Source: Candidatus Hydrogenedentota bacterium
GTDB lineage: Bacteria > Hydrogenedentota > Hydrogenedentia > Hydrogenedentales > SLHB01
Assembly: GCA_963745075.1 (NCBI GenBank)
Contig: CAVUWV010000015.1
Span: 64,001-128,000 of the forward strand
Reading direction: 5' to 3'
Length of the DNA stretch: 64,000 nt
Within the stretch, counting starts at the first letter, position 1. Each line of letters begins with the position of its first letter. A program made the translations under genes and the position numbers. Positions 53,327-62,588 of this stretch are shown piece by piece. The notes under the pieces are model-generated. The model was given only the letters and a program-made list of their open reading frames with translations. It was not told the origin of the DNA and ran no database searches.

Positions 53327-53402
53327 TGGAGCTGGATCGGGGAGTCGAACCCCGGACCTCATCATTACGAGTGATGCGCTCTACCAACTGAGCTAATCCA
53401 GC
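53327..53402 (-). tRNA. tRNA-Thr(CGT)
   Basis: 76-nt cloverleaf GCTGGATTAGCTCAG...CT-CGT-AA...GTTCGAC...CCA. Confidence 0.97.
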
Positions 53403-53410
53403 AAGAAAAA

Positions 53411-53486
<76 letters not shown>

Positions 53487-54507: not shown

Positions 54508-54593
54508 TGGTGGGCGAGGAGGGATTCGAACCCTCAAGCCCGTTGGGGCAGCGGATTTTAAGTCCGCCGTGTATGCCATTCCACCACTCGCCC
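54508..54593 (-). tRNA. tRNA-Leu(TAA)
   Basis: 86 nt with long variable arm; CT-TAA-AA loop; encoded CCA. Confidence 0.96.
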
Positions 54594-54685
54594 TCGAGCG
54601 CGAACTAGCATGAATATCGCCCGCACCTGAAATGGGAAGCGTTCCGACCGAACCACCCACCCCACGCGGTGGTATCAAATTGTAA

Positions 54686-54761
54686 TGGAGGCGGCACCCG
54701 GACTCGAACCGGGGAATGGAGGCTTTGCAGGCCTCTGCCTTACCAACTTGGCTATGCCGCC
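54686..54761 (-). tRNA. tRNA-Cys(GCA)
   Basis: 76 nt GGCGGCATAGCCAAG...CT-GCA-AA...CCA. Confidence 0.97.
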
Positions 54762-60095: not shown

Positions 60096-60467
60096 TCACA
60101 AGCCTCGGAGGAACTGCTCGACGGCCGCACAATGATCGCCTTGGATTTCCACCTCGCCATCTCGAAACACACCGCCCGCGCCGCAACGCTTTTTCAGCGT
60201 CCGCAGCAGTTCCTGCGCGTCCCCCGTGACGTTACGTATAACCGTCACAGTCTTGCCTTTGGCTCGTTTCTCCACGAAGATAGGCAGGCCCCCCTTGCGA
60301 GTTTTTGTGATCTGAAACGGCAACTCCGATGGGGCGGGTTGCATCCGGTCGGTGGAACTCGCGGTCGGCGGCTTCGAGTCCGTGGCCGCACGTTCCGCCA
60401 GCGAAGCGAAAGGATTGTCAGTCAACGGCTTAACGTCGCCCGAGCGGTCAATTCGTTTCTTGCTCAA
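60096..60467 (-). CDS. Translation initiation factor SUI1/YciH family
   Basis: EKRAKGKTVTVI, LKKRCGAGG, VEIQGDH. Confidence 0.9.
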   Translation of the reverse strand: MSKKRIDRSGDVKPLTDNPFASLAERAATDSKPPTASSTDRMQPAPSELPFQITKTRKGGLPIFVEKRAKGKTVTVIRNVTGDAQELLRTLKKRCGAGGVFRDGEVEIQGDHCAAVEQFLRGL

Positions 60468-61476
60468 ATTCTACTCCGGTCAGATTCTTCAAGGGAATTG
60501 GACCAGCCGCGCCTGATTTCGGTGCCAAAACACTCGCGATTTCGTTGAGAAACAATCTCCGAAGGGCATCGTACCCGCGATGGTTCGGGTCTTCAAGGTT
60601 GGAGAAATACCAATAGTGCGGGTCATCGGGGTGGTAATGCTCGCGCCACCACTGGACACAATAGACGCCATGCCCGAGGAACGGTACCCGGATATCCACG
60701 AGGTGCACGTTGTCGTGGCGCTCGGCGACATCCGCGATGACCGTGTTATACGCGCTGTGAATGGCCAGCAAGTCCTCCCAGGATGGAAGACCGGCGGCCC
60801 TCGGGTTGCCAATACCATCCGAGGGATCGTAGATGTTTGCCAGGAAGATGTGGCACCCGCCGGGGAAGACCGACGTGACTTTCGCGAGCGTCATATCGAG
60901 CCGAGTCCGGAAGTTTTCGATCCACGGCTGCGCCTCCTCGAGGCGCGCCCCGTACATCGCGCCTTCCTGCGGTTCACCCTTTCCGTACCAATGAATGAGG
61001 TCGTTGCCGCCGGTCGTCATGACGACGATCCCAAGCGTATCTTCCGGGAACGGTTTCAGGTTGGACACTTGATCGTCCCAATGCTGAAGCGAGGTAGAGC
61101 CTGACACGGAAATGTTCATCGGCGTGAGATTGGGCAGAACCGCGCTGAGACAAATGCCCTTCATGCGGTCAAACTCGTCTTTTGGGTTCTTCACGAGGCG
61201 CTCGAAATACGAGTATCCGCGATCCGCGCCGAATCCGGCCGTGACACTGTCACCGATGCCAAGCAAGACGGCCGGCCGATCCGTCCAAACTCGTTGAAAT
61301 GGTTCGCGGGGGACGGGCGGCCCCGCGGGTCCAGACCCCACCGGCGGCGGGAGCCAGAACCGGAAGGTCGCGAAATACCGGAGATACCCGAGCGTGCCGG
61401 CCATAAAGACGACACCCGCGAGCAGGAGAATGATGAGCCGCCGGCCGCGATGGATTGGGGACGCTGTCTCGTTCAT
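60448..61476 (-). CDS. SGNH/GDSL hydrolase, membrane-anchored
   Basis: GIGDSVTAG block I, SVSGSTS, TTGGND block III, DPNHRGY block V variant. Confidence 0.87.
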   Translation of the reverse strand: MNETASPIHRGRRLIILLLAGVVFMAGTLGYLRYFATFRFWLPPPVGSGPAGPPVPREPFQRVWTDRPAVLLGIGDSVTAGFGADRGYSYFERLVKNPKDEFDRMKGICLSAVLPNLTPMNISVSGSTSLQHWDDQVSNLKPFPEDTLGIVVMTTGGNDLIHWYGKGEPQEGAMYGARLEEAQPWIENFRTRLDMTLAKVTSVFPGGCHIFLANIYDPSDGIGNPRAAGLPSWEDLLAIHSAYNTVIADVAERHDNVHLVDIRVPFLGHGVYCVQWWREHYHPDDPHYWYFSNLEDPNHRGYDALRRLFLNEIASVLAPKSGAAGPIPLKNLTGVEFEQETN

Positions 61477-61494
61477 AGGTCGATCTCCTGCTTT

Positions 61495-61530
61495 CGATTA
61501 CGATTACGAGCACGATTACGATTACGAATC
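61495..61530. repeat. Hexamer tandem array (CGATTA/CGAGCA)
   Basis: CGATTA CGATTA CGAGCA CGATTA CGATTA CGAATC. Confidence 0.8.
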
Positions 61531-61633
61531 GAGATCGGATTACCCTCAAATGCTCGGTTTCTCTGGGTGCGATCAGGATACACCCTCAAATTTTCCCTTG
61601 GCGAATCGGGTATGCATGGGGTAAGGTATATTC

Positions 61634-61885
61634 AGTGAATGACACGTGGCGGCAAAGAGACTCATTGGGGAGTCGTCGGGATACGCCGGCGTCGTCGGAA
61701 AGGAGGTGGTCCATCTATGAGTAGTCCGAGTACGAATCCTGACGCCATAGTTGGACATGCCGTAGGTATGACCAAAATGGAGATTCTTGTCAAGGAGATC
61801 CTTTCGTAACTGTGGCGTTAGGAGCTACAGCGGACTGTATCTAGCACGGGGCGGCGTCCAACGGATGCCGCCCCGCGTTCCTGTT
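61634..61885 (+). ncRNA. Candidate structured RNA with extended SD-like tract and embedded short ORF
   Basis: 5' three-way junction, GAAAGGAGGTGGTCCA, 16-bp and 8-bp long-range stems whose mismatches are G-U on the plus strand, 13-bp terminal hairpin; ends estimated. Confidence 0.55.
61717..61809 (+). CDS. Possible 30-aa peptide
   Basis: MSSPSTNPDAIVGHAVGMTKMEILVKEILS behind AAGGAGGTG; lies within the paired region. Confidence 0.4.
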   Translation: MSSPSTNPDAIVGHAVGMTKMEILVKEILS

Positions 61886-61901
61886 GCGGGGGGGCCGTAT
61901 C

Positions 61902-62588
61902 ATGGGGAATGGGGATCGGAGTTACCAAATTCGCCGGGCCGTGGCACGCCCGGGATTGGACGGGGATTGGGACAGCGAGGTGTGGATGAACGCCGCGACG
62001 GCCCACATCAATCTGTTCCGTTCCGAAGGCAGCGACCATCACCCGGACGCTCGCGCCCGTGTGTTGTATGACGACGAGGGGTTGTACCTCATCTTTCGAG
62101 TCTACGACCGCTACGTTCGTTGCTTGACGACCGAGTACCAGGGGCCCGTGTACCAAGACGCTTGCGTCGAGTTTTTTGTCCAGCCTCATCCCGGTAAGGG
62201 GTATTTCAATTTTGAGATGAACTGCGGTGGCGTGCTGCTGCTGAAGTATATCGAGGACGCGACGCGCACCGACGGCGGCTTCGCGAAGTCTGTAGACGTG
62301 CCAGTGGACCTCGGATCGGACGTGGTCGCGTACCATTCGCTAAACGCGCCGATCGAACCGGAACTCGAGAACCCCCTCGAATGGCGCGTCGAGTATGCGA
62401 TCCCGTTCAGCCTCTTCGAGCATTACGTGGGTCCCTTGGGGGAGGTCGCGGGCCAGGCGTGGCGCGGCAACTTCTACAAGTGCGCGGAGAACAATTCGCA
62501 CCCCCACTGGGGGTCCTGGGCGCCCGTCGGGCGAGAGCTGAACTTCCACGTTCCGGAGCGCTTTGCCCCACTGCGGTTTGGGATGTAG
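61902..62588 (+). CDS. Carbohydrate-binding family 9-like (DOMON-like) protein
   Basis: LDGDWDSEVW, LYDDEGLY, VYQDACVEFF, YFNFEMN, WRGNFYKC, FHVPERF. Confidence 0.88.
   Translation: MGNGDRSYQIRRAVARPGLDGDWDSEVWMNAATAHINLFRSEGSDHHPDARARVLYDDEGLYLIFRVYDRYVRCLTTEYQGPVYQDACVEFFVQPHPGKGYFNFEMNCGGVLLLKYIEDATRTDGGFAKSVDVPVDLGSDVVAYHSLNAPIEPELENPLEWRVEYAIPFSLFEHYVGPLGEVAGQAWRGNFYKCAENNSHPHWGSWAPVGRELNFHVPERFAPLRFGM

What the first reader, a model, noticed from the sequence alone, without database searches (positions are those of the whole stretch)
61634..61885. Unannotated structured RNA with a 16-nt complement to the 16S rRNA 3' tail and an embedded 30-codon ORF
Seen in sequence: possible promoter TTGGCG-18-TAAGGT (61598-61627). 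A 5' three-way junction is formed by P1 61647-61653/61691-61697, P2 61659-61663/61670-61674 and P3 61675-61679/61686-61690. Immediately after comes GAAAGGAGGTGGTCCA (61698-61713), then a long rod (61721-61728/61831-61838 and a 16-bp stem 61737-61752/61808-61823) capped by two small hairpins, and a 13-bp terminator-like stem (61847-61875). Every non-Watson-Crick position in these stems is G-U on the plus strand, which points to selection on RNA structure on that strand. Established: the tract pairs with the conserved 16S tail (UGGAUCACCUCCUUUC) over 16 nt with one G-U, far longer than a normal RBS. Inference: a stand-alone RNA that binds or stores 30S subunits, or a dual-function RNA whose 30-aa ORF (61717-61809) is structure-gated; TCCTTTC at 61799-61805 offers an alternative anti-SD pairing. 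I do not recognise it as a named family. This is the best candidate in the window for an undescribed system.
Basis: partly seen in the sequence, partly recalled or inferred. Interest (0 to 1): 0.8.

Follow-up and report, generated by a model that had tools for sequence, protein, structure and literature searches.

The report
Ribosome-docking mini-RNA with extra leader
A small stand-alone RNA gene, kept across a poorly known bacterial phylum, can pair with the whole free tail of the ribosome's 16S RNA and keeps a short reading frame whose peptide hardly matters; it is a new, more elaborately folded version of a known but unexplained class of ribosome-binding mini-messages.

Summary
Real and conserved, but not categorically new. 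The element (about 61634-61880, +) is the genome's strongest match to its own 16S tail outside the rDNA. A covariance model finds it strongly in 69 of 135 genomes of the phylum, nearly always once; named homologues are Ca. Hydrogenedentota. Neighbouring genes vary in family and orientation. It works like the published rreB mini-mRNA (17-nt SD, 30S-bound, weakly translated; PMC5711450) and shares its core with Rfam CC2171 and Ms_IGR-5, but passes neither cut-off. This scan already found the class on other DNA, but not this sequence. Expression and ribosome binding are untested here.

The parts
61598..61627 (+). sigma-70-type promoter, -35 TTGGCG, 18-nt spacer, -10 TAAGGT (predicted)
   Evidence: In sequence. 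The best -10 ends 66-74 nt upstream of the SD in 42 of the 54 homologues that score 7 or more of 12 (63 examined). Score of 8 or more on the sense side in 32 of 63, on the antisense side in 8 of 63. Start near 61634 is inferred.
61641..61696 (+). Leader hairpin: outer stem 61641-61645 with 61691-61696 (variable), core 61647-61653 with 61680-61688, internal loop, upper stem 61657-61663 with 61670-61677
   Evidence: Core and upper stem: 86.3% of cells paired, 121 double changes vs 43.7+-7.4, 0 of 500 shuffles; slid controls 34-50% (on 28 sequences). The outer stem comes from single-sequence folds only.
61652..61684 (+). Conserved motif within the leader: invariant C61653, A61655, G61679; pair 61652:61683 exchanges G.A / A.G / C-G
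   Evidence: Invariant in 63 of 63. Pair types GA 38, AG 19, CG 5, AC 1; APC-corrected MI z 11.2; about 5 changes on a weakly resolved tree.
61698..61713 (+). Extended Shine-Dalgarno, 16-nt complement of the 16S 3' tail with one G-U
   Evidence: Strongest non-rDNA duplex in the genome. 16-21 contiguous WC/GU pairs to this genome's tail region in 63 of 63 homologues kept by the filter. One dropped homologue (L219) has a degenerate tract.
61717..61809 (+). 30-codon ORF, AUG 10 nt after GGAGG; frame conserved, peptide not
   Evidence: Open 23-44 codons in 62 of 62 complete homologues; other frames median 16 and 4. pN/pS 0.67 in 12 independent close pairs vs 0.10-0.22 for the neighbouring gene.
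61749..61757 (+). Internal anti-RBS element able to pair with 61708-61716 (7 of 9 pairs here); in the finished RNA its 5' part is held in the rod beside the stop codon
   Evidence: Long-ORF subtype: 92% paired, 12 double changes vs 4.0+-1.5, 0 of 500. This window's subtype: 85% paired, double changes not significant (52 of 500), covariation score 10 of 500. Predicted in the nascent RNA in 52 of 62, in full-length RNA in 2 of 62; shuffled control 27 of 248.
61721..61838 (+). Long rod: ORF 5' part paired with the 3' UTR (61721-61728/61831-61838; 61737-61752/61808-61823), capped by two variable hairpins
   Evidence: 25 homologues of this subtype: 77.5% paired, 52 double changes vs 27.6+-4.3, 0 of 500; slid controls 34-43%. 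RNAalifold alone kept only 6 of these pairs.
61847..61885 (+). 13-bp terminator-like hairpin and tail
   Evidence: A hairpin of 7 bp or more follows the stop in 61 of 62 homologues; 34 of the 61 have 5 or more U in the next 10 nt.

Best explanation
A Hydrogenedentota version of the rre class of ribosome-docking mini-transcripts, in which binding and passage of a ribosome matter and the peptide mostly does not. Shown by comparison: own promoter and terminator, a near-invariant 16-nt complement of the 16S tail, a start codon at fixed spacing, an always-open frame of 23-44 codons with near-neutral amino-acid drift, a covarying leader hairpin and rod, and an ORF-internal element complementary to the 3' half of the long SD. 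Inferred: (1) during transcription that element closes the ribosome site, so ribosomes do not load co-transcriptionally; (2) when the 3' strand is made, the rod takes the element away and frees the site; (3) a 30S subunit binds through the long duplex and initiates slowly, as rreB does; (4) elongation opens the rod and exposes the RNA to decay, as rreB decay needs its start codon. The RNA's level and fold would then track the supply of initiation-competent ribosomes. The leader sits just 5' of the SD duplex and its conserved loop is most likely a protein contact at the 30S platform; what it binds and what the output is are not shown.
For: spread, invariance, open frame; pN/pS 0.67, differences at codon positions 1/2/3 = 34/43/45, control gene 0.10-0.22; SD-to-stop 97% identical to a same-genus genome whose neighbouring gene differs at 70% of synonymous sites; covariation; nascent 52 of 62, full length 2 of 62, shuffled control 27 of 248; neighbours differ in family and orientation; strongest duplex; rreB experiments; rreB 5' end equals the CC2171 consensus; same core in Ms_IGR-5.
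Against: No expression, binding or translation data for this lineage. The anti-RBS helix is weakly supported in this window's own subtype, and only 28 of 62 ORFs beat their own shuffles at p<=0.05 (this genome p 0.285). The element resembles the 16S tail by construction, and homologues are related, so shuffle counts overstate. Modelling a ribosome at the stop restores the helix in only 17 of 62. The element is not found in 64 of 135 genomes, including most of three families (f11 2/23 weak only, f13 0/10, f5 4/15), so it is not essential phylum-wide. In rreB and rreR the peptides are reported as conserved within their clades, unlike here. pN/pS below 1 leaves room for weak peptide constraint.
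Confidence: 0.6

Rival explanations
1. An mRNA for a functional small peptide, with the long SD and folds only keeping expression low.
For: Frame open in 62 of 62, and in 5 of 5 dropped homologues; N-terminal M-x-S-P common; pN/pS 0.67 is below 1; RreB and RreR peptides reported as conserved in their clades.
Against: Length 23-44 aa, differences spread evenly over codon positions, pN/pS three to six times the neighbouring gene's; conserved residues coincide with paired or invariant nucleotides; no Pfam hit.
Confidence: 0.13
2. A 30S/70S storage or hibernation RNA that holds ribosomes idle in bulk under stress.
For: Strongest 16S-tail complement in the genome; strong conserved promoter position; rreB stays on 30S through a sucrose gradient.
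Against: For rreB, 20-fold overexpression did not change growth and ribosomes far outnumber the RNA. Storage does not need an always-open 23-44-codon frame. Abundance unknown.
Confidence: 0.12
3. A decoy for a protein, either a platform ribosomal protein recognised by the leader loop or CsrA recognised by GGA motifs, with the ribosome site controlling the decoy's lifetime.
For: Invariant loop and non-canonical covarying pair; the leader resembles a sense stretch of the genome's 16S rRNA (profile score reached by 13 of 2998 genome controls and 6 of 1000 shuffles; best hit there for 27 of 63 leaders); csrA and rpsU are present; ANGGA 1.79 per RNA vs 1.14 shuffled.
Against: The resemblance was noticed by eye, so the test is post hoc; nhmmer gives E 1.6 and 13 for the two halves; only 6 of 63 leaders reach p<=0.01 and one of those hits elsewhere; this window's leader is not significant (77 of 300); the pairing differs from the rRNA's (recalled). 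GGA enrichment is small and not loop-specific as tested.
Confidence: 0.09
4. The mRNA of a type I toxin-antitoxin pair, kept silent by metastable folds as in H. pylori aapA3.
For: 30-codon ORF and a predicted co-transcriptional RBS-closing helix, as in the title and abstract start of PMC6733600.
Against: Peptides are not hydrophobic (GRAVY median -0.55) nor conserved; no conserved antisense promoter (8 of 63 vs 32 of 63 sense); single copy; the final fold frees rather than locks the site.
Confidence: 0.03
5. A leader or attenuator controlling the downstream gene (here a CBM9-family gene).
For: Co-oriented CBM9 gene begins just after the hairpin; weak U tail.
Against: Of 37 downstream frames scanned, 15 had a Pfam hit: 7 co-oriented, 8 opposite, from 13 different families. 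Neighbours are shared only within genera.
Confidence: 0.03

Closest known systems
rreB / rreR small mRNAs of Alphaproteobacteria (Hahn et al., PMC5711450; read parts 1-4 of 6 of the text, abstract to Discussion, plus a search of one supplementary table)
   Same: Stand-alone small transcript; 16-17-nt complement of the 16S 3' end; short ORF; terminator; 3' part of the long SD predicted double-stranded; context not conserved across lineages.
   Different: About 250 nt vs 165; leader of about 64 nt with a covarying hairpin vs 8 nt; AUG 10-11 nt after GGAGG vs GUG whose first base is inside the duplex; 23-44 codons vs 14 or 18; peptide not conserved; G-U in the duplex; other phylum (their search reported only Alphaproteobacteria).
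Rfam RF01867 CC2171 (Caulobacter sRNA; Northern-validated in Methylorubrum, function unknown per passages of 10.1101/2022.01.24.477521)
   Same: Same long-SD core at the 5' end; its consensus matches the rreB 5' primer, so CC2171 and rreB look like one family (inference); SD, start, rod, terminator order.
   Different: 18.9 bits vs cut-off 75; only the SD tract and terminator align; the model has no leader hairpin.
Rfam RF02471 Ms_IGR-5 (Actinobacteria; validated but uncharacterised per passages of 10.1101/2021.12.14.472595 and PMC8079986)
   Same: Same core with the G variant (GGUGGUCC) and a downstream GGAC able to pair with it.
   Different: No match at E<=1 in this genome; transcript starts a few bases before the SD; 11-15-codon frames in the loci seen.
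Metastable SD-closing hairpins of type I toxin mRNAs (H. pylori aapA3, PMC6733600; search listing and start of abstract only)
   Same: Predicted co-transcriptional helix that blocks the ribosome site.
   Different: Here the finished RNA frees the site; peptide neither hydrophobic nor conserved; no antitoxin seen.

Membership tests
rre class (rreB/rreR) | At least 16 nt complementary to the 16S 3' end | tested here: met
   16 bp with one G-U, not perfect; 16-21 WC/GU pairs in 63 of 63
rre class (rreB/rreR) | Short ORF directly behind the long SD | tested here: met
   23-44 codons in 62 of 62
rre class (rreB/rreR) | GUG start whose first base ends the complementary tract | tested here: not met
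   AUG in 63 of 63, 3 nt after the tract here; one dropped homologue has GUG. The paper notes an ATG case in Azospirillum.
rre class (rreB/rreR) | Stand-alone unit with own promoter and terminator | tested here: met
   By prediction only:
rre class (rreB/rreR) | Peptide conserved within the clade | tested here: not met
   pN/pS 0.67, variable length
rre class (rreB/rreR) | Co-sediments with 30S; weak translation; start-codon-dependent decay | not testable with these tools
   Needs experiments
Rfam CC2171 (RF01867) | Score at or above 75 bits | tested here: not met
   18.9 bits
Rfam Ms_IGR-5 (RF02471) | Score at or above 45 bits | tested here: not met
   No match at E<=1 in G000
6S RNA, SRP RNA, tmRNA | Model match at this locus | tested here: not met
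   No hit in the window; each found elsewhere in the genome
Type I toxin mRNA | Hydrophobic conserved peptide and antisense RNA | tested here: not met
CsrB/RsmY-type sponge | Many ANGGA motifs in hairpin loops | tested here: inconclusive
   1.79 vs 1.14 per RNA outside the SD; loop position not scored

The most novel reading that the evidence does not exclude
rreB, CC2171, Ms_IGR-5 and this element are one overlooked, multi-phylum RNA device: long SD, open peptide-independent frame, internal anti-RBS switch. In Hydrogenedentota it has gained a leader that imitates part of the 16S platform and binds a platform protein, so the RNA samples or sorts a particular class of 30S subunits and reports on it through translation-coupled refolding.
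Probability: 0.15. Interest if true: 0.85.

Novelty: new variant of a known kind. Interest (0 to 1): 0.55.

Why it matters
The function of the rre/CC2171 mini-genes has been open since 2016-17. This family separates the two possible products: the frame is kept while the peptide drifts, which points to ribosome passage rather than the peptide. It also supplies compensatory pairs that define a testable folding switch and a conserved leader loop to use as bait. It extends the class to another phylum, and the pattern scan links three separately named RNAs by a shared core.

Tried and rejected
Rfam at gathering score on the whole window: four tRNAs only. Permissive scan of 61400-62000: CC2171 at 18.9 bits only. 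6S, SRP, tmRNA: present elsewhere. Paralogues in G000: none beyond short chance matches. Three-way junction: rejected. TCCTTTC gate: rejected. Ribosome-at-stop switch: 17 of 62, not supported as general, although the element ends 28-61 nt (median 43) before the stop in both subtypes while lying 24-37 or 61-70 nt after the AUG. Viral contigs: 0 exact matches to one strict pattern. Literature: 'rreB'+'Shine-Dalgarno' 1 paper; 'CC2171'+'Caulobacter' 1; Ms_IGR-5 terms 7 listed; 'Hydrogenedent'+'noncoding RNA'+'motif' 0; long-SD searches. Term searches inside two RNA-discovery papers found no mention; their supplements were not searched and those of the preprint are closed, so a listing there is not excluded. 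Rows dropped from the 63-sequence set by my filter: L033, L206, L211, L204, L219; all five have open frames of 26-41 codons. L012 is cut by a contig end. Several genomes with strong hits were duplicates or not re-extracted.

Full report
Observation. The region folds better than shuffles on both strands, more so on + (z -4.42 vs -3.34). The tract 61698-61713 pairs with the 16S tail of this genome over 16 nt with one G-U. Among 27,076 SD-like sites it is second only to the antisense of the rDNA itself (-30.3 vs -31.0 kcal/mol; next -26.2). Rfam gives no hit at gathering score. The only permissive hit is CC2171 at 18.9 of 75 bits, aligned over the SD tract and the terminator. 6S, SRP and tmRNA lie elsewhere.

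Homologues. BLAST found matches in 41 of 61 related genomes at E<=0.1, some of them chance. A covariance model of leader, SD and first codons, built from 28 of them, matched 71 of 135 genomes of the phylum: 69 at E<=1.1e-12 and 2 weakly, with one genome holding two strong copies. The 28 match by construction. It was not found in 64, including most of families f11, f13 and f5. Three titled records scoring 75-90 bits are all Ca. Hydrogenedentota. Neighbours are shared only within genera. Of 37 downstream frames scanned, 15 had a Pfam hit, from 13 families, 7 co-oriented and 8 opposite. The unit is stand-alone. The best -10 hexamer ends 66-74 nt before the SD in 42 of 54 scorable homologues, and a hairpin follows the stop in 61 of 62.

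Leader. The three-way junction is the minimum-energy fold of this one sequence, but across 63 homologues its P1 pairs in 53% and P3 in 70% of cells. One extended hairpin pairs in 86%, with 121 double changes against 44 in shuffles and 34-50% in slid controls. The top three covarying column pairs are 61658:61676, 61652:61683 and 61650:61685 (z 11.9, 11.2, 9.7). The second exchanges G.A (38), A.G (19) and C-G (5), about five times on a weakly resolved tree. C61653, A61655 and G61679 are invariant. This looks like a protein-binding or tertiary motif (inference).

ORF. All 63 sequences have AUG 10 nt (56) or 11 nt (7) after GGAGG. The frame is open for 23-44 codons in 62 of 62 complete ones; the other two frames are shorter than 20 codons in 37 and 55 of 62. 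Five homologues that my filter dropped also have open frames of 26-41 codons; one starts with GUG and one has a degenerate SD. There are two subtypes, about 27-35 and 37-44 codons. In 12 independent close pairs pN/pS is 0.67, with differences at codon positions 34/43/45; the neighbouring CBM9 gene gives 0.10-0.22. From SD to stop the DNA is 97% identical to a same-genus genome in which 70% of the neighbour's synonymous sites differ. So the nucleotides and the open frame are selected, and the peptide little. Stops are UAG 42, UAA 14, UGA 6, against 822/703/1243 for long ORFs of the genome; relatedness and pairing may explain this.

Rod and switch. The rod holds in 25 homologues of this subtype (77.5% paired, 52 vs 28 double changes, 0 of 500), though RNAalifold alone kept only six pairs. 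An element inside the ORF (61749-61757) is complementary to the 3' half of the long SD and the spacer (61708-61716). In the long subtype the helix pairs in 92% of cells with 12 double changes against 4.0+-1.5 (0 of 500). In this window's subtype it pairs in 85%, but double changes are not above shuffles (52 of 500) and the covariation score is reached by 10 of 500. Each ORF pairs better with its own RBS than with permuted ones (0 of 10,000; within subtype 107 of 10,000), but only 28 of 62 beat their own shuffled ORF. Folding predicts the helix in the nascent transcript in 52 of 62 and in the full-length RNA in 2 of 62; the same procedure on shuffled windows gives 27 of 248. Blocking the stop region to imitate a ribosome restores it in only 17 of 62.

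Resemblance to 16S rRNA. By eye the leader consensus resembles a sense stretch of the genome's 16S rRNA (about nt 710-780 of my cut; 'helices 23a and 24, platform' is a recalled label). A profile scores 21.4 bits there against 14.5+-1.8 in controls (13 of 2998 genome pieces, 6 of 1000 shuffles), and 27 of 63 leaders have their best 16S hit there. The test is post hoc, nhmmer gives E 1.6 and 13, and this window's leader is not significant. It is a lead only.

What is known. Hahn et al. (PMC5711450) described rreB: 165 nt, 17-nt SD, 14 codons, co-sediments with 30S, weakly translated, half-life 10 min rising to 37 min when the start codon becomes a stop, no growth effect on overexpression, function elusive; similar genes in four alphaproteobacterial orders. 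Its 5' primer matches the CC2171 consensus. A pattern scan of named genomes returned long-SD mini-genes in Alpha- and Gammaproteobacteria, Acidobacteriota and Actinomycetota; of 20 scanned, many match CC2171 or Ms_IGR-5, three above the Ms_IGR-5 cut-off. Many carry a downstream GGAUC or GGAC able to pair with the SD extension (seen by eye and in folds; not counted). In those the promoter lies right before the SD and this leader is absent. Cryo-EM in S. aureus shows that start-proximal extension of the SD helix is physically possible by two pairs, and bS21 is proposed to hinder it in E. coli (passages of PMC13009471); this genome encodes bS21, so how much of the 16-bp duplex forms on the ribosome is open. 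Earlier notes of this scan report the same class on other DNA and no look-alike of this sequence. I reached rreB through my own paper search.

Verdict. The element works like rreB and shares the core of the class. It fails the CC2171 and Ms_IGR-5 cut-offs and differs from rreB in start codon, leader and peptide conservation, so it is a new variant, not a filed member. Most likely mechanism (0.6): the ribosome site is closed during transcription, opened by the finished rod, bound tightly by 30S, translated slowly, and the RNA is turned over in step with translation; the leader contacts a protein near the platform. Steps of sequence, frame and pairing are shown by comparison; binding, translation, switching in vivo and any output are inferred.

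Noticed in passing
L247-L271 (G135 and relatives), about 80 nt upstream of the SD: A second lineage has a long-SD mini-gene (mostly 12 codons) with its own long structured leader, apparently unrelated to this one; found in 25 of 61 genomes searched; in G135 it lies between a GluQ/GluRS-like gene and prfB.
   Followed up: partly
L044, L047, L061, L064, L112-L114, L124, L125, L129, L143, L151, L155: Ms_IGR-5-like long-SD genes outside and inside Actinomycetota often carry a second SD-like GAGGTGG about 30 nt downstream, near the end of the short frame.
   Followed up: no
L049, L052, L058, L070, L107: Gammaproteobacterial long-SD mini-genes (22-26 codons) score 34-43 bits with CC2171 in the four scanned, below its cut-off; outside the range reported for rre genes.
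   Followed up: partly
window 60096-60467 (-): SUI1/YciH-like translation-initiation gene 1.2 kb upstream, below NCBIfam cut-offs; linkage seen only within the genus.
   Followed up: partly
window 61490-61535: Short tandem repeat of a GATTAC-type hexamer between the GDSL gene and the promoter.
   Followed up: no
L219 (G029:C249), L033 and G027:C318: G029 has a degenerate SD tract with leader and open frame intact; G027 has two strong copies.
   Followed up: partly
long-ORF subtype, e.g. L023, L026, L035: The spacer and start form a palindrome (CCATCGATGG) that could fold the AUG into a small hairpin; many homologues also have a second purine-rich SD-like stretch a few codons before the stop.
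   Followed up: no
window 53327-53486 and 54508-54761 (-): Four tRNA genes (Thr, Phe, Leu, Cys) in two pairs.
   Followed up: no
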